NCBI GenBank assembly: GCA_963770895.1
Contig: CAVYRF010000002.1
Coordinates: 576,001 to 640,000, forward strand
Length of the DNA: 64,000 bases
From: an uncultured Acidobacteriota bacterium
GTDB taxonomy: Bacteria > Acidobacteriota > Thermoanaerobaculia > Multivoradales > UBA5704
Reading direction: 5' to 3'
How positions within the stretch are numbered: position 1 is the stretch's first letter; every line of letters begins with the position of its first letter. The notes under the pieces are model-generated. The model was not told the origin of the DNA and made no database searches. It was given only the letters and a program-made list of their open reading frames with translations. This document shows, one piece after another, positions 3,450 through 8,373 of the stretch. The translations under genes were made by a program, and so were the position numbers.

Positions 3450-3626
3450 CTAACAGTTCTTACAGCTCTTCGCCGTCGGGTTCTCGCAGGTGCAGCCGGT
3501 GATCGGGCAGGTGTTGACCACCGAACAGGCGGGAGTCAGCGCCCCGCCCCCCGCCACGCCGGCCAGCGAATCCAGCCGGTAGAGGGATTCGGCCATCAGC
3601 CGCAGCTTCTTCGTGCTCTTCTTCAT
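3450..3626 (-). CDS. RiPP-like precursor peptide 1 (58 aa, double-Gly leader, Cys/Ser/Thr-rich core)
   Basis: MKKSTKKLRLMAESLYRLDSLAGVAGG-GALTPACSVVNTCPITGCTCENPTAKSCKNC; AAAGGAG RBS; leader homologous to two other small ORFs in the window. Confidence 0.8.
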   Translation of the reverse strand: MKKSTKKLRLMAESLYRLDSLAGVAGGGALTPACSVVNTCPITGCTCENPTAKSCKNC

Positions 3627-3722
3627 CGCGTCTCCTTTGGGGTTGCACCGCGCTCGTAATGAGCAGTGCCGCCGCGCCCCAGAATCGGGCCGGCGACGCC
3701 GGATACGCCGGCCGCTGATCGG

Positions 3723-3751
3723 TTGACAAGCGGCTGAGCATCCGGCACCAT
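3723..3751 (+). promoter_or_regulatory. putative sigma70 promoter
   Basis: TTGACA (3723-3728), 17-bp spacer, CACCAT (weak -10). Confidence 0.4.
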
Positions 3752-3877
3752 AGCTACATCGCTCCGCGCGCTCTTTTCGAGAGCGACGCGGCGGCTCCAA
3801 AGAGGCTTGGGCGGCCCACGGAGCTGGGCGGGCTGGGACCTGCCAAATAGGAAGACGCCCAGAAAGGAGGTGGTCCA

Positions 3878-3922
3878 GTGGACTTAGATAAACCCGGTTT
3901 GGTGGAGGTGGCGTCCTCGTAA
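3878..3922 (+). CDS. 14-aa micro-ORF MDLDKPGLVEVASS
   Basis: GTG start immediately after a perfect AAGGAGGTG SD; TAA stop. Confidence 0.45.
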   Translation: MDLDKPGLVEVASS

Positions 3923-4022
3923 GGGGAGATCCTCCTAAGCCTGGCTCTCTGGTTCTGACCAGTGCTGCAGGTCGGCTCCCCTCCAAGCGGGGGGAACCCA
4001 ACGCCACTGAGACCAACCCCTC

Positions 4023-4050
4023 AAGGCCCCGGCTTCGGCCGGGGCCTTTT
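4023..4050 (+). terminator. rho-independent terminator
   Basis: AAGGCCCCGGC-TTCG-GCCGGGGCC-TTTT. Confidence 0.85.
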
Positions 4051-4230
4051 GTGTTTCTGCCCGCCTCGACGCGGAGCCTCTTGATGCCGCCGTTGCCTCG
4101 CGCGCCAGTCCTCCCCTGACTCGCCGCCCCGCCGCAGCCTGGCGCGGCAGATGCATCCCTGCGCCGACAGCGCCGGTTTCGCTGTACGCTGCAGCTGACG
4201 GGCGGTGGTCGACGGGAGGGAGGTTCGCGG

Positions 4231-7200
4231 ATGGGGATCTGGGATCAACTGTCACGCTGGCCGGTCATCCAGCAAATCGCCACGCGGGACCTCAAGGGGC
4301 TGGGCGCCACCGCCGCTTCGGCGCACAGCCGCGGCCTGGCGCCGCGCACGCAGGCGGCGGACCGGGTGGTGCCTTCGGTGTGCCCGTACTGCGCCGTGGG
4401 CTGCGGCCAGCTGGTGTTCGTCAAGGACGAAAAGATCACCGACATCGAAGGCGATCCCGATTCGCCGGTTTCGAACGGCTGCCTCTGTCCCAAGGGGTCG
4501 GCGACGTTCCAGCTGGTCACCGGCGCCCATCGCCTGCAGCAGGTGCTCTACCGCCGGCCGCACGGCACCGAATGGGAAGTGCTGCCGCTCGAAACGGCCA
4601 TGGACATGGTGGCCGAGCGCGTCAAGGCGACCCGCGACGCCACCTTCATGGAGGAGCACCCCGACGGCTTCCCGGTGCGCCACACCCTGGGCATCGCCCA
4701 CCTGGGCGGCGCCACCCTCGACAACGAAGAGAACTACCTGATCAAGAAGCTGTTCAACAACCTGGGGATCGTGCAGATCGAAAACCAGGCCCGGATATGA
4801 CATTCCGCCACGGTCCCCAGTTTGGGGACCTCCTTCGGTAGGGGCGGCGCCACCACCTTCCCGGGCGACCTGCAGAACTCCGACTGCATCGTCATCCAGG
4901 GATCCAACATGGCGGAATGCCACCCGGTGGCGTTCCGCTACGTCATGGAAGCGAAGCGGCGCGGCGCGACGATCATCCACGTCGACCCGCGCTTCACCCG
5001 CACCAGCGCGGTCGCGGACCTGCACGTGCCGATCCGCGCCGGCAGCGACATCGCCTTCCTGGGCGCGGTGGTCAACTACGTCTTCGAGCACGAGCGCTGG
5101 TTCCACGACTACGTGGTCGCCTACACCAACGCGCCCGTCCTGGTGTCGGAAGACTTCCGCGACACCGAGGACCTGGACGGCCTGTTCAGCGGCTGGGACG
5201 CCGAGGGCGCCCGCTACAATCCCAGATCCTGGCAGTACGACGGCACCGAGATGCATCCCGCCGGGGGCCATCGCGAGCTGACCGCCGGCGAGCTCCACTC
5301 GCGGCGCGCCGTCGAAAGCGAGTGCGCCTCGCCGCTGCCGCTCGACCCGACGCTGCAACATCCGCGCTGCGTCTTCCAGGTCCTGAAGCGCCACTTCGCC
5401 CGCTACACGCCCGAGATGGTGGACGCGGTGTGCGGCGTGCCGCGCCACCTGTTCCTGCGCGTCGCCGAAGCGCTGTGCGCCAGCTCGGGGCGCGACCGCA
5501 CCGCCGCCTTCTGCTACGCCGTCGGCTGGACGCAGCACTCGGTGGGCGTGCAGTACATCCGCACCGCGGCGATCATCCAGCTGCTGCTCGGCAACATGGG
5601 CCGCCCCGGCGGCGGCATCCTGGCGCTGCGCGGGCACGCTTCCATCCAGGGCTCGACCGACGTGCCGACGCTGTTCAACCTGCTGCCCGGCTACATGGCG
5701 ATGCCGCAGGCCGGCAAGGACCTGGACTTCGCCACCTACGTCAAGCGCAACACCCCCGCCGGCGGCTGGTGGTCCGAGTTCCCCAAGTACGCGGTGTCGC
5801 TGCTCAAGGCGTGGTACGGCGCCGAAGCGACCGCCGACAACGGCTGGGCCTACGATCACCTGCCCTTCGTCCACGGCGACCATTCGCACATGACGACCGT
5901 CACGGCGATGGCCGACGGGCTGGTCAAGGGCTACTTCCTGATGGGCGAAAACCCCACCGTCGGCTCGATGCACGGCGCCCTGCAGCGCGCCGGGATGCGC
6001 CAGCTGGACTGGCTGGTGGTGCGCGATTTCGCGCTCATCGAAAGCGCCGACTTCTGGCGCCAGGCGCCGGAGATCTCGCGCGGCGAGGTGCGGCCCGAAG
6101 ACATCAAGACCGAGGTGTTCTTCTTCCCCTGCGCCGCGCACACCGAAAAGGACGGCACCTTCACCAACACCCAGCGCCTGTTGCAGTGGCACCACAAGGC
6201 GGTCGAGCCGCCGGGCGATTGCCGCAGCGAGCTGCACTTCGCCTTCCACCTGGGGCGCCGCCTGCGCCAGCTGTACGCCGGATCGCAGGCGCGGCGCGAC
6301 CGGCCGCTGCTGGCGATGACCTGGGACTATCCGACCACGGGGCCGACCGCGGAGCCCAGCGCCGAGGCGGTGCTGGCCGAGATCAACGGCTACAGCATCG
6401 CGCCCGACGGCAGCCGCAAGCCGGTAGGCGGCTTCACCGAGCTCAAAGCCGACGGCTCGACCGCCTGCGGCTGCTGGATCTATGCCGGCTGCCGCAAGGA
6501 CGGCGTGAACCTGACGGCGCGCCGCAAGCCGGCCCGCGAACAGAACTGGGTGGCGCTGGAATGGGCGTGGGCGTGGCCCGCCAACCGCCGCATCCTGTAC
6601 AACCGAGCCTCCGCCGACCCGCAGGGGCGCCCCTGGTCCGAGCGCAAGCGCTGCGTGTGGTGGGACGCGGACGCCAAGCGATGGACGGGCGAAGACGTGC
6701 CCGACTTCATCGCCGACCGGCCGCCGTCCTACTGTCCGCCCGAGGGCGCCACCGGCCTGGCCACCATCGCCGGCGATGCGACCGTTCATGCTGCAAGGCG
6801 ACGGGCGCGGCTGGCTGTTCGCTCCCAACGGCCTGCTGGACGGGCCGCTGCCCGCCCATTACGAGCCCGAAGAGGCGCAGTTCCACAACCCGTTCTACGC
6901 CCAGCAGTGCAACCCCACTCGCCTGGAATGGCGGCGCCGCGACAACCCCTACCATCGCGCCTGGGACGATCCCCGCTATCCGCACGTGATGACCACCTAC
7001 CGGCTGACCGAGCACCACACCGCCGGCGCCATGAGCCGCTGGCTGTCGTGGCTGTCCGAGCTGCAGCCCGAAATGTTCTGCGAGGTGTCGCCGGAGCTGG
7101 CGCGCCAATACGGCCTGGTCAACGGCGGCTGGGCGACGCTGAGCACCGCGCGCGCCGAGATCGAGGCGCGGGTGCTGGTGACCCAGCGCATGCCGCCGCT

Positions 7201-7558
7201 GCGCCTGGGCAGGCGCGTCGTGCACCAGATCGGCGTGCCCTACCATTGGGGCAGCAAGGGGAGGGTGGTGGGCGACGCCGCCAACGAGCTGATCAGCTTC
7301 GTCGGCGACCCCAACGTCTCGATTCAGGAGTCCAAGGCGCTGACCTGCGCCATCCAGCCCGGCCGCCGCAGCCGCGGTCGGCGGGTGGTCACCAGCGGCC
7401 CCCTGGCGGCGGCACTGACGGCGACGCCGGCGCCGGAGTCCGTGGACGGCGAACCGGCGGGCGGCGCCTGGTCCCGCGACCAGCCGCCGGTTTCGGCGCG
7501 TCAGCCCGGCCCGCACGGCATGGTGGCATCGGCGGCACAGCGCAACGAGGAGAGCTGA
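4231..7558 (+). CDS. fdnG: formate dehydrogenase alpha subunit (Mo/W-bisPGD, selenocysteine at TGA 4798-4800), interrupted by a +1 frameshift near 6781
   Basis: CPYCAVGC...C Fe-S motif, NQARI-U-HSAT active site, GSNMAECHP, LRGHASIQG. The C-terminal domain (PFMLQGDG, TTYRLTEHH) is in the next frame; removing 1 nt gives a 1108-aa frame. Confidence 0.9.
4812..4830 (+). promoter_or_regulatory. bacterial SECIS element
   Basis: Hairpin GGTCCCC-AGTTT-GGGGACC starting 11 nt after the in-frame TGA at the Sec position. Confidence 0.8.
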
Positions 7559-7560
7559 GC

Positions 7561-8373
7561 ATGGCCAAGGGGTTCTTCACCGACACCACGCTGTGCATCG
7601 GCTGCAAGGCCTGCGAAGTGGCGTGCAAGCAGTGGAACCAGCTGCCGGACGACGGCCTGCAGTTCACCGCCATGTCGTACGACAACACCGCCGCCCTGGG
7701 AGCCTCCACCTGGCGGCACGTCTCGTTCATCGAACGGCCGGTGCCGCTGTCGGGACAGGAAACGGGGCTGGGCAATTTTTCCTGGCTGCTGATGTCCGAC
7801 GTGTGCAAGCACTGCCACCGCGCCGGCTGCCTGGAAGCCTGCCCCACCGGCGCCATCATCCGCACGGAATTCGACAGCGTCTACGTGCAGCCCGACATCT
7901 GCAACGGCTGCGGGTATTGCGTCGTCTCCTGCCCGTTCGGGGTCATCGACCGCCGCTCCGACGACGGCCGCGCCTGGAAGTGCACGCTGTGCTACGACCG
8001 GCTGCGCGGCGATCTGGAGCCCGCCTGCGCCAAGGCCTGCCCCACCGACTCGATCCTCTTCGGCGAGGTGGAAGAGCTCAAGGTGCACGCCATCGATCGC
8101 GTCCAGCGCCTGCACCGGCACGGCGTCGGCGAAGCCTGGCTGTACGGCGCCGACGAAGCCGGACAGCCCGGCACCGAAGGGCTGAACGCCTTCTTCCTGC
8201 TGCTCGACCGGCCCGAGGTGTACAACCTGCCGCCCAACCCGACGGCTCCCGCCAAGCGCGCCGCCGCCAGCTGGGGCGCCATGGGATTGGCCCTGGCCGG
8301 CCTGGCTGCCGCGGCGCTGGCCGCGGTGCTCTCGACCGCGGGCGACGATCGAGATCGGGACCGGTACGCATGA
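7561..8373 (+). CDS. fdnH: formate dehydrogenase beta (4Fe-4S) subunit
   Basis: DTTLCIGCKACEVAC, CKHC...C...CP, CNGCGYCVVSCP, KCTLC...PACAKACP; C-terminal TM helix; GAGGAG RBS. Confidence 0.9.
   Translation: MAKGFFTDTTLCIGCKACEVACKQWNQLPDDGLQFTAMSYDNTAALGASTWRHVSFIERPVPLSGQETGLGNFSWLLMSDVCKHCHRAGCLEACPTGAIIRTEFDSVYVQPDICNGCGYCVVSCPFGVIDRRSDDGRAWKCTLCYDRLRGDLEPACAKACPTDSILFGEVEELKVHAIDRVQRLHRHGVGEAWLYGADEAGQPGTEGLNAFFLLLDRPEVYNLPPNPTAPAKRAAASWGAMGLALAGLAAAALAAVLSTAGDDRDRDRYA

What the first reader, a model, noticed from the sequence alone, without database searches (positions are those of the whole stretch)
3723..4050. Stand-alone structured transcript with an 18-nt complement of the 16S rRNA 3' end, a 14-codon ORF and tandem SD sites
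Seen: a TTGACA promoter candidate, a 5' hairpin (CGCTCT-TTTCG-AGAGCG region), then AGAAAGGAGGTGGTCCAG (3861-3878) running into a GTG start. The ORF MDLDKPGLVEVASS contains a second GGAGGTG (3904-3910). A CCTCCT anti-SD follows at 3931-3936, then more hairpins and a strong terminator. Established: the typical 16S 3' end reads CUGGAUCACCUCCUUUCU, so this tract can pair over ~18 nt with one G:U, far beyond a normal SD and into helix 45. Inference: a ribosome-trapping/sponging RNA or a dual-function sRNA with a micropeptide. Alternatively it is a translation-coupled attenuator for the downstream fdh operon. I cannot assign it to a named RNA family.
Basis: partly seen in the sequence, partly recalled or inferred. 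Interest (0 to 1): 0.8.

Follow-up and report, generated by a model that had tools for sequence, protein, structure and literature searches.

The report
Ribosome-binding small RNA with micro-ORF
This is a stand-alone, roughly 295-base structured RNA gene whose 18-base stretch pairs with the tail of the ribosome's 16S RNA and starts a 14-codon reading frame, a larger variant, from a different bacterial group, of the little-studied 'rre' small mRNAs whose function is still unknown.

Summary
AGAAAGGAGGTGGTCCAG (3861-3878) complements this genome's own 16S 3' end over 18 nt with one G:U. It runs into a GTG start, a 14-codon ORF, a second GGAGGTG, a CCTCCT and a strong terminator.

It is not unassigned. 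It matches the published 'rre' class (rreB/rreR, Hahn et al. 2016, PMC5711450): small mRNAs with a 16-17-nt complement of the 16S 3' end that includes the G of a GTG start, plus a 14-18-codon ORF. For rreB the paper shows 30S binding and weak translation, and calls the function elusive. Rfam's CC2171 (RF01867) carries the same motif, but the window scores 21.6 bits against a cut-off of 75.

This version differs from rreB:
- It is about 295 nt, not 165.
- A conserved roughly 100-nt 5' domain appears to form a pseudoknot.
- A covarying long-range helix locks ORF codons 10-13 to the 3' domain.
- The closest named records carrying it are titled Acidobacteria/Acidobacteriota, not Alphaproteobacteria.

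The ORF frame is kept in 35 of 35 homologues, but the peptide shows no codon-position signature. The fdh gene lies downstream only in this genome (1 of 35 loci), so the element is not an fdh attenuator. Contigs from soil RNA libraries cover only the element.

Verdict: new variant of a known kind; moderate interest.

The parts
3723..3728 (+). -35 box TTGACA
   Evidence: Sequence. By eye, TTGAC is kept in 29 of 30 aligned loci and TCGAC in 1. The consensus scan did not call it.
3746..3751 (+). -10-like box CACCAT, 17 nt after the -35
   Evidence: An nAnnAT pattern is kept at this spacing across the 30 loci (by eye). The start site at about 3757 is inferred from it.
3757..4052 (+). Predicted transcript, about 295 nt
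   Evidence: Bounded by the promoter and terminator. RNA-library contigs cover 3766/3771/3781 to 4016/4017/4051 and nothing in 3500-3742 or 4067-4300.
3764..3791 (+). P1: stem CCGCG/CGCGG enclosing the variable hairpin CGCTCT-TTTCG-AGAGCG
   Evidence: A1 columns 8-12 with 36-40: 92.9% of cells paired, 3 of 5 pairs changed on both sides.
3792..3826 (+). P2: CGGCTCC (3792-3798) with GGAGCTG (3820-3826)
   Evidence: 99.6% of cells paired, 5 of 7 pairs changed on both sides.
3807..3862 (+). Proposed pseudoknot: TTGGGCG (3807-3813, in the P2 loop) with CGCCCAG (3856-3862, abutting the 16S-complementary tract)
   Evidence: 92.4% of cells paired. Two pairs show a compensatory change, each in a single sequence (L023, L035). 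Weaker support than P1-P3.
3827..3844 (+). P3 hairpin GGCGGG-CTGGGA-CCTGCC
   Evidence: 97.1% of cells paired, 3 of 6 pairs changed on both sides. One position shows G-C, G-U and A-U.
3861..3878 (+). 18-nt complement of the 16S rRNA 3' end (extended SD), one G:U
   Evidence: Among 35 homologues, 30 pair at 18 of 18 and 5 have one mismatch.
3878..3922 (+). Micro-ORF: GTG start, 14 codons (MDLDKPGLVEVASS), TAA stop
   Evidence: An in-frame ORF of 13-16 codons is kept in 35 of 35 loci, and all length changes are multiples of 3. There is no excess of third-position variation.
3904..3910 (+). Second SD-like GGAGGTG inside the ORF (encodes E-V)
   Evidence: GGAGGT is present in 35 of 35 loci, in register with the start codon.
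3907..3914 (+). 5' strand of the long-range helix (GGTGGCGT, ORF codons 10-13)
   Evidence: Pairs with 4001-4008. 96.6% of cells paired; compensatory G-C to A-U in 2 sequences and U-A to G-C in 5.
3915..3926 (+). Hairpin CCTC-GTAA-GGGG holding the stop codon in its loop
   Evidence: 76.5% of cells paired in this register, and the register shifts in some lineages. The stop stays in frame regardless.
3931..3936 (+). CCTCCT, anti-SD-like element after the ORF
   Evidence: CCTCC-like in most homologues. Its partner differs between lineages: the first or second SD-like tract, or a downstream GGAGG. Unresolved.
4001..4008 (+). 3' strand of the long-range helix (ACGCCACT) within the conserved AACCCAACGCCAC
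4022..4052 (+). Intrinsic terminator: GC-rich stem plus T-run
   Evidence: 11 pairs, 9 G-C. 95.9% of cells paired, with 8 of 10 pairs changed on both sides among homologues.

Best explanation
The region is an independent gene for a roughly 295-nt structured small RNA or mRNA of the 'rre' kind.

Proposed course of events:
1. It is transcribed from its own TTGACA/CACCAT promoter and ends at its own terminator.
2. A compact 5' domain (P1, P2, P3 and a probable pseudoknot) presents an 18-nt tract that pairs with the whole single-stranded 3' tail of 16S rRNA, up to and including the G of a GTG start codon.
3. Folding predicts that the first five bases (AGAAA) are unpaired. They could seed 30S binding, after which the long duplex holds the subunit and keeps initiation inefficient.
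4. When a ribosome does translate the 13-16-codon frame, it must open the long-range helix joining ORF codons 10-13 to the 3' domain. It then terminates in a hairpin loop. Ribosome occupancy would thereby be coupled to the RNA's fold and stability.

Shown here:
- the anatomy and the conservation;
- covariation in the helices;
- preservation of the reading frame;
- independence from fdh;
- the element, without its flanks, in contigs of RNA libraries.

Taken from the rreB experiments by analogy: 30S binding, weak translation and start-codon-dependent turnover.

Inferred only: the seed step, the remodelling step and the cellular role. The act of translation, rather than the peptide, looks like the selected feature.
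For: Motif and 16S match.

Selection for pairing with 16S:
- 30 of 35 homologues pair at 18 of 18.
- Variation is A-to-G opposite U at five different positions.
- Five relatives tested have the same 16S tail.

Independent, conserved gene:
- Matches in 45 of 61 related genomes, 30 of 36 in the same family.
- Matches in 39 of 401 genomes sampled across the phylum.
- Single copy in this genome.

Structure:
- 94.0% of cells paired, against 38-52% with partners slid.
- 28 pairs changed on both sides, against 9.0 +/- 1.9 in shuffles, 0 of 500 reaching it.

Reading frame:
- Kept in 35 of 35 loci.
- The GTG-to-second-GGAGGT distance is 23, 26, 29 or 32 nt.
- Frames +1 and +2 mostly meet stops within 0-3 codons.
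- The frame is also kept in more distant relatives with a TTG start or motif variants.

Seed: the median unpaired probability is at least 0.99 for AGAAA.

RNA libraries, 4 runs from 3 studies:
- One contig at 100% identity spans 3771-4017, with what I recognise from recall as Illumina adapter on both ends.
- Other contigs span 3766-4016 and 3781-4051.
- No cover of the flanks.

Published mechanism for the analogous rreB: PMC5711450, abstract and sections 13, 18, 19.
Against: - No experiment exists on this RNA or in this lineage. 30S binding is by analogy only.
- Contigs from RNA libraries cannot prove transcription, strand or ends, and the tool says such libraries can hold DNA.
- Apart from AGAAA, the motif is predicted to be paired, with partners that differ between lineages, so its accessibility is uncertain. 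That folding ignores the pseudoknot.
- The pseudoknot rests on two single-sequence compensatory changes.
- The shuffle control keeps column make-up but not relatedness, so it overstates support for related sequences (tool note).
- rreB overproduction had no growth effect (PMC5711450, section 19), so the biological role is open.
- Homology to the alphaproteobacterial rre RNAs beyond the motif was not detected. The shared design could be convergent.
Confidence: 0.75

Rival explanations
1. A purely non-coding regulatory or protein-binding sRNA. The ORF is incidental, and the SD-like and CCUCC tracts serve intramolecular folding or pairing with target mRNAs.
For: - The RNA structure covaries strongly.
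- The conserved C-terminal 'EVAS' codons are exactly the bases locked in the long-range helix.
- There is no third-position excess in the ORF: mean entropies 0.98, 1.15 and 0.83 for codons 2-9.
- TAA or TAG sits in a GNRA-like loop in many sequences.
Against: - The frame is kept in 35 of 35 loci, with indels of -3, +3 and +6 only.
- The stop stays in frame even where the hairpin register or position changes (L018, L035, L057, L118).
- The other two frames are rich in stops.
- The motif ends exactly on a start codon at standard SD spacing.
- Variation in the motif tracks pairing with 16S rather than with any fixed internal partner.
Confidence: 0.12
2. An ordinary small-protein gene. The 14-residue peptide is the effector, and the long SD only sets its expression level.
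For: - The ORF is kept in all homologues.
- Gly at codon 7 and the E-V-A-S tail are conserved.
- Hahn et al. treat RreB and RreR as conserved small proteins (PMC5711450, sections 13, 18).
Against: - Residues 2-6 and 8-9 vary freely with no synonymous bias.
- The conserved residues coincide with RNA helices.
- About 250 of the roughly 295 nt are conserved non-coding structure, which a peptide gene does not need.
- The synthetic RreB and RreR peptides were unstructured, and presumed RreB overproduction did not affect growth (PMC5711450, sections 13, 18, 19).
Confidence: 0.08
3. A cis-acting leader or translation-coupled attenuator of the downstream selenocysteine formate dehydrogenase operon.
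For: In this window it lies upstream of, and on the same strand as, a molybdopterin oxidoreductase gene with a TAT-like signal and an in-frame TGA. It also has a short ORF followed by a terminator.
Against: - FDH is downstream in 1 of 35 loci, the window itself, and in 0 of 7 other loci of the same genus. Flanks were about 1.5 kb, and shorter in L015, L025 and L146.
- The element has its own conserved promoter.
- The terminator ends about 170 nt before the fdh start.
- RNA-library contigs stop at the terminator.
Confidence: 0.02
4. A decayed, inverted fragment of a 16S rRNA gene.
For: 18 nt are the reverse complement of the 16S 3' end.
Against: Similarity to the 16S locus does not extend beyond those 18 nt. 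The next-best matches are 9-10 nt at chance level. The element is also conserved as a unit with its own structure.
Confidence: 0.01

Closest known systems
rreB of Bradyrhizobium japonicum / Bradyrhizobiaceae (Hahn et al., RNA Biol 2017;14:1353, PMC5711450; abstract and sections 13, 18, 19 read)
   Same: - A stand-alone small transcript with its own promoter and terminator.
- A 17-nt complement of the 16S 3' end that includes the first base of a GTG start.
- A 14-codon ORF.
- Only the first roughly 5 nt of the tract are predicted to be single-stranded.
- Function unknown.
   Different: - rreB is 165 nt; this RNA is about 295 nt, with a conserved roughly 100-nt 5' domain ahead of the tract.
- The peptides are unrelated: MSxxKRCHLAGIAR in 6 rreB-type loci against M-x5-G-x2-EVASS here.
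- No sequence similarity was found beyond the motif.
- The lineage differs.
- 30S binding has been shown for rreB, not here.
rreR of the Rhodobacter/Roseobacter clade (same paper, section 18)
   Same: - The extended SD ends on a GTG.
- The micro-ORF is conserved (18 codons).
- There is a second SD-like GAGAGGTG inside the ORF and a CACCUCC-like element further 3' (seen in loci).
- A terminator follows.
   Different: - The peptide is unrelated (MSRxxLERGVGT...).
- The promoter sits about 50 nt upstream of the motif, so there is no long 5' domain.
- It is found in Alphaproteobacteria only.
Rfam RF01867, Caulobacter sRNA CC2171 (Northern-validated in Methylorubrum; bioRxiv 10.1101/2022.01.24.477521, passages read)
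   Same: The family consensus starts with GAAAGGAGGUGAUCCAGUG. The window gives a full-length but weak match at 3854-3999. It is an sRNA of unknown function.
   Different: - The score is 21.6 bits against a gathering score of 75.
- 0 of 151 genomes of this class pass the cut-off.
- The alignment is confident only over the motif.
- The CC2171-type ORF begins MSHC... and has 21-27 codons.
- That CC2171 is an rre RNA is my inference. The rre paper has no occurrence of 'Rfam' or 'CC2171'.
Dual-function sRNAs and leader-peptide attenuators in general (recalled classes such as SgrS/SgrT and trpL)
   Same: A short ORF is embedded in a structured regulatory RNA. Translation could remodel the RNA.
   Different: - No downstream gene is controlled.
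- No target-pairing seed was identified.
- The defining feature here is pairing with the ribosome's own RNA.

Membership tests
rre small mRNAs (Hahn et al. 2016) | At least 16 nt complementary to the 3' end of the organism's 16S rRNA | tested here: met
   18 nt with one G:U (17 Watson-Crick pairs) against this genome's own 16S.
rre small mRNAs (Hahn et al. 2016) | The last base of the complementary tract is the first base of a GTG start codon | tested here: met
   G3878 is both. The same holds in the 35 homologues.
rre small mRNAs (Hahn et al. 2016) | A short ORF (14-18 codons) conserved within the clade | tested here: met
   13-16 codons, in frame in 35 of 35 loci. The peptide is only partly conserved.
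rre small mRNAs (Hahn et al. 2016) | A discrete small transcript with its own promoter and terminator | tested here: inconclusive
   The promoter and terminator are conserved. RNA-library contigs are confined to the element. There is no Northern blot or RACE, and contigs cannot prove transcript ends.
rre small mRNAs (Hahn et al. 2016) | Strong association with 30S subunits and weak translation | not testable with these tools
   Shown for rreB only (PMC5711450).
rre small mRNAs (Hahn et al. 2016) | Occurrence in Alphaproteobacteria (the range reported in the paper) | tested here: not met
   - Records that carry this RNA type are titled Acidobacteria/Acidobacteriota (L146, L149), Krumholzibacteriia (L118) and Fibrobacteraceae (L057).
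- The element in L149 reads the same as that of a same-family relative, L017.
- This is a range, not a mechanism, so it makes the window a new lineage rather than a non-member.
Rfam RF01867 (CC2171) | Score at or above the curated gathering threshold (75 bits) | tested here: not met
   21.6 bits, E = 0.022. No hit at gathering level. Relatives score 23-34 bits.
Transcription or translation attenuator of the downstream operon | Conserved linkage to the regulated gene | tested here: not met
   FDH is downstream in 1 of 35 loci.

The most novel reading that the evidence does not exclude
Extended-SD micro-ORF RNAs are not an alphaproteobacterial curiosity. They may be a class of dedicated 30S ligands that spans phyla and possibly arose more than once.

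In this lineage the pseudoknotted 5' domain and the 18-nt tract would together dock on the platform of the small subunit and read the state of the 16S 3' tail: free, mature, or occupied. Abundance of idle or newly made 30S subunits would then be coupled to the RNA's own translation, fold and decay, giving a ribosome-status sensor or checkpoint rather than a sponge or a peptide gene.

Distinct families with the same design appear in records titled Planctomycetota/Phycisphaerae and Terriglobia/Acidiferrales.
Probability: 0.15. Interest if true: 0.8.

Novelty: new variant of a known kind. Interest (0 to 1): 0.45.

Why it matters
RNAs built to pair with the entire 3' tail of 16S rRNA are conserved, but their purpose is unexplained. 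The only experimental paper found calls the function 'elusive'.

This window shows that the design exists outside the Alphaproteobacteria, in a much more elaborate RNA that appears in contigs of several soil RNA libraries. It also yields features that can be tested:
- a covarying 5' domain;
- a helix that a translating ribosome must open;
- a reading frame kept without selection on the peptide.

These could separate the 30S-ligand, regulatory-ORF and micropeptide explanations. The link to Rfam CC2171 joins two literatures that do not cite each other. Practically, a covariance model of this family would annotate a conserved gene that current pipelines miss.

Tried and rejected
- Rfam at gathering thresholds found only three tRNAs in the window. 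In E-value mode the only relevant hit was CC2171, below threshold. The other hits were terminator-hairpin look-alikes.
- The 1-mismatch genomic match on contig C1 lies inside a coding region on the other strand and was set aside as chance.
- ARAGORN found no tmRNA or tRNA at the site.
- The Atlas search with the upstream aldehyde dehydrogenase, meant to place the organism, gave mixed phyla and was uninformative.
- A first flank-clustering attempt was swamped by spurious high-GC ORFs. It was replaced by tblastn with the window's own flanking proteins. Three of those five translations were in the wrong frame and are not relied on: fdhA_N, up1 and the small peptide. The FDH result rests on the C-terminal query and the aldehyde dehydrogenase query.
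- RNAalifold proposed a local hairpin pairing CGCCC with GGAGGUG (A1 columns 106-110 with 118-123). It has no compensatory change and competes with the pseudoknot, so I preferred the pseudoknot. I did not count the alternative on its own.
- The idea that CUGGGCG (3824-3830) pairs with CGCCCAG was dropped, because most sequences have C opposite A there (by eye).
- I could not fix a single partner for the CCUCC element. The candidates differ by lineage.
- In genus-level relatives the 16S-complementary tract is predicted to pair with the 3' region CCACUGAGACC. Other genera do not keep this.
- No paper on rre RNAs beyond Hahn et al. turned up in these searches: 'rreB' or 'rreR', 'extended Shine-Dalgarno' with small protein or sORF, and the four-term search. 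No paper was seen that reports such RNAs outside Alphaproteobacteria. The library lacks most subscription journals, and the supplements of PMC5711450 (Fig. S1 and others) were closed and may list further taxa.
- I built no covariance model, because a roughly 290-position model would probably exceed the time limit. No protein structure or complex job was sent, because the peptide is under 30 residues.
- Phylum-wide absence cannot be claimed. BLAST with a 146-nt query misses divergent copies.
This call is the same report with that field added.
Full report
**The observation.** TTGACA lies at 3723-3728. The hairpin CGCTCT/TTTCG/AGAGCG spans 3769-3785. AGAAAGGAGGTGGTCCAG lies at 3861-3878 and ends on the G of a GTG. 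The 14-codon ORF (MDLDKPGLVEVASS) stops at TAA 3920-3922. A second GGAGGTG lies at 3904-3910 and CCTCCT at 3931-3936. An 11-pair terminator stem at 4023-4048 is followed by a T-run.

The genome holds one 16S gene, and its 3' end reads GGCTGGATCACCTCCTTTCTAAGG. The tract therefore pairs with it over 18 nt with a single G:U. Chance is excluded: 0.01 matches are expected in the window even with three mismatches allowed. The only other near-match in 8.16 Mb, apart from the 16S gene itself, lies inside a coding region. Similarity to the 16S locus stops at the 18 nt, so this is not a decayed rRNA fragment.

**Conservation.** BLAST with 3720-4060 found the element in 45 of 61 related genomes, including 30 of 36 in the same family and several other families of the order. 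Identity was 72-86% over the core. A 146-nt core query found it in 39 of 401 genomes sampled across the phylum. The window's own genome has a single copy.

The alignment shows these conserved blocks:
- a TTGAC -35 box, and an nAnnAT -10 box 17 nt further on;
- a roughly 100-nt 5' domain;
- the 16S-complementary tract;
- a variable stretch of about 20 nt;
- GGAGGTGGCG;
- a hairpin holding the stop codon;
- a CCTCC element;
- AACCCAACGCCAC;
- a terminator.

**Taxon.** Four named records from the genome-contig scan carry this RNA type. Two are titled Acidobacteria/Acidobacteriota (L146, L149), one Krumholzibacteriia (L118) and one Fibrobacteraceae (L057). L149's element reads the same as that of a same-family relative, L017. 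RF01867, which is common in Alphaproteobacteria and rang in the Caulobacter control, passed its cut-off in 0 of 151 genomes of this class. I conclude that the organism is probably an acidobacterium and not an alphaproteobacterium. This rests on record titles, not on a phylogeny.

**Structure.** I aligned 34 of the 35 sequences of this type (A1); L010 was left out as a near-duplicate of L009. RNAalifold and pair counting support the following helices:
- P1: 3764-3768 with 3787-3791.
- P2: 3792-3798 with 3820-3826.
- P3: 3827-3832 with 3839-3844.
- A long-range helix between ORF bases 3907-3914 (GGTGGCGT) and 4001-4008 (ACGCCACT).
- A small hairpin: 3938-3940 with 3964-3966.
- The terminator.

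I added a pseudoknot between the P2 loop (3807-3813) and the bases abutting the tract (3856-3862). It has two compensatory changes, each in a single sequence.

Overall, 94.0% of cells pair, against 38-52% when partners are slid. 28 pairs change on both sides, against 9.0 +/- 1.9 in shuffles, with 0 of 500 shuffles reaching that value. The shuffle control ignores relatedness and overstates support. The slid control is the fairer of the two.

**The 16S-complementary tract.** Among 35 homologues there are 11 variants. 30 of 35 pair with the 16S tail at all 18 positions. Their differences are A-to-G changes opposite U, at five different positions. Five sequences have one true mismatch. Five relatives that I checked have the same 16S tail. 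More distant members show U:G or G:U replacements and, in one case, a TTG start. This pattern points to selection for pairing with 16S rather than with a fixed internal partner.

Partition-function folding (nested structures only) gives a median unpaired probability of at least 0.99 for the first five bases, AGAAA. The rest of the tract is mostly paired, but with different partners in different lineages.

**The ORF.** All 35 sequences keep an in-frame ORF of 13 (1 locus), 14 (23), 15 (7) or 16 (4) codons. The distance from the GTG to the second GGAGGT is 23, 26, 29 or 32 nt, always the same modulo 3. Frames +1 and +2 usually meet a stop within 0-3 codons. The stop stays in frame where the hairpin register shifts (L018 group), where no hairpin is evident (L035), and where it moves by one codon (L057, L118).

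However, codons 2-9 show no third-position excess: mean entropies are 0.98, 1.15 and 0.83. The conserved E-V-A-S codons are the bases of the long-range helix. The frame therefore looks selected, while the peptide sequence does not.

**Context.** The downstream gene is a molybdopterin oxidoreductase with an Fe4S4 domain, a TAT-like N-terminus and an in-frame TGA at the position expected for the selenocysteine of formate dehydrogenases. That position is from recall; the domains are. But tblastn finds FDH downstream only in the window's own locus: 1 of 35 overall, and 0 of 7 other loci of the same genus. An aldehyde dehydrogenase lies upstream in 4 loci of the genus. The element is therefore not an fdh leader.

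**Expression.** Twenty public runs hold part of the stretch, nine of them recorded as RNA. I laid the contigs of four soil or rhizosphere RNA libraries from three studies.
- X6: one 288-nt contig, identical to the window over 3771-4017, with what I recognise from recall as Illumina adapter at both ends.
- X9: a 252-nt contig that is entirely 3766-4016.
- X10: a contig covering 3781-4051 at a depth figure of 1277.
- X14: pieces within 3781-4018.

None covers 3500-3742 or 4067-4300. Contigs cannot prove transcription, strand or true ends, and such libraries can hold DNA. The coincidence of contig limits with the predicted transcript in three studies is a hint of a discrete, abundant RNA and no more.

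- rreB of Bradyrhizobium is a 165-nt mRNA with a 17-nt perfect complement of the 16S 3' end that includes the G of its GTG start, and a 14-codon ORF.
- It sits mainly in the ribosomal fraction and co-sediments with 30S.
- It is translated weakly, because of both the extension and the GTG.
- It is stabilised when the start codon is replaced by a stop.
- Overproduction did not change growth.
- Analogues are reported in Caulobacterales, Rhizobiales, Rhodobacterales (rreR, 18 codons) and Rhodospirillales.
- The authors call the function elusive.

The window's element meets the sequence-level criteria of this class. Rfam's CC2171 consensus begins with the same motif and gave the window a 21.6-bit match. 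I infer that CC2171 is the Caulobacter/Rhizobiales rre RNA. The rre paper has no occurrence of 'Rfam' or 'CC2171', and a preprint on CC2171 says that no condition affecting it is known.

**Differences from rreB.** The RNA here is nearly twice as long. It has a conserved, probably pseudoknotted 5' domain upstream of the tract, and a covarying helix that ties the ORF to the 3' domain. Its peptide is unrelated, and it comes from another phylum. A profile built from this family hit none of the alphaproteobacterial loci at E < 1e-3, so common descent is not shown.

- 62 loci form one rreR/CC2171-type cluster, nearly all from records titled as alphaproteobacterial taxa. By eye, about a dozen further CC2171-type (MSHC...) loci lie outside it.
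- 6 loci are of the rreB type.
- Separate families come from records titled Phycisphaerae/Planctomycetota (6 loci, 10-12 codons) and Terriglobia/Acidiferrales (5 loci, 6 codons, MRYxLR).
- There are several smaller groups.
- About ten hits lie in long coding regions and look like chance.

By my arithmetic, about 280 chance matches to the 17-mer are expected in 596 Gb. Only groups with conserved flanks should therefore be counted.

**Verdict.** This is a real, conserved, independent RNA gene of the rre kind, and a new variant in a new lineage. The most likely mode of action is capture of the 30S subunit by the extended SD, with rare translation of a frame-conserved micro-ORF that remodels the RNA. 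The cellular role is unknown. The fdh-attenuator and 16S-relic readings are rejected. The added value is the wider distribution, the elaborate structure and the link to CC2171.

Noticed in passing
window 3450-3626, minus strand: A 58-residue ORF, MKKSTKKLRLMAESLYRLDSLAGVAGGG/ALTPACSVVNTCPITGCTCENPTAKSCKNC, preceded by GGAGA. It has a leader-like N-terminal half, a Gly run and a core rich in Cys, Thr and Ser, which resembles a ribosomally made modified-peptide precursor. No Pfam hit. Its start lies about 100 nt from the -35 box of the RNA gene, and the two are divergently oriented.
   Followed up: partly
window 4231-8373, plus strand: A formate-dehydrogenase-like alpha subunit with an in-frame TGA at 4798-4800. 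Read in one frame with TGA=U, it gives 1380 residues. The molybdopterin match ends near residue 600, a low-complexity Arg/Ala stretch follows, and a 4Fe-4S subunit begins at about residue 1120. The alpha subunit's C-terminal part seems to lie in another frame, so there may be a frameshift, an assembly error or a gene boundary that I misread.
   Followed up: no
L047, L066, L089, L156, L159 (records titled Acidobacteriota / Acidiferrales): A separate conserved family. AAGGAGGTGATCCAGTG is followed by a 6-codon ORF (MRY-x-L/K-R/P/S) and a GC-rich hairpin, with conserved upstream sequence.
   Followed up: partly
L063, L067, L091, L100, L102, L111; also L046/L090 and L069/L120 (records titled Phycisphaerae / Planctomycetota): Further groups with the same 17-nt motif on a GTG, 10-16-codon ORFs rich in Cys and Gly, and T-runs 100-140 nt downstream. 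The sections of the rre paper that I read do not report them.
   Followed up: partly
L070, L132, L138, L081 (records titled Acidobacteria / Terriglobales / Terriglobia / Polarisedimenticolia): ORFs of 15-19 codons that also carry E-V (GAGGTG) three to four residues before the stop, as in the window's family. A second SD-like tract late in the ORF may be a recurrent design.
   Followed up: no
G009, G012, G022: Some relatives have two BLAST matches to the element, for example a second 80-nt match at 88% identity in G009. These may be second copies.
   Followed up: no
L094, L109 (records titled Burkholderiales / Bordetella MAGs): The motif is followed by 24-26-codon ORFs starting MRD, with T-runs at about 128 nt. 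This may be a betaproteobacterial type. There are only two loci, and they did not cluster together.
   Followed up: no
window 3881-3896 and homologues: The 'variable' start of the ORF keeps a nucleotide pattern, R-G/A-T-A-R-A-C (GATAAAC, GGTAAAC, AGTAGAC). This places TAG or TAA in the two unused frames. The reason is unknown.
   Followed up: no
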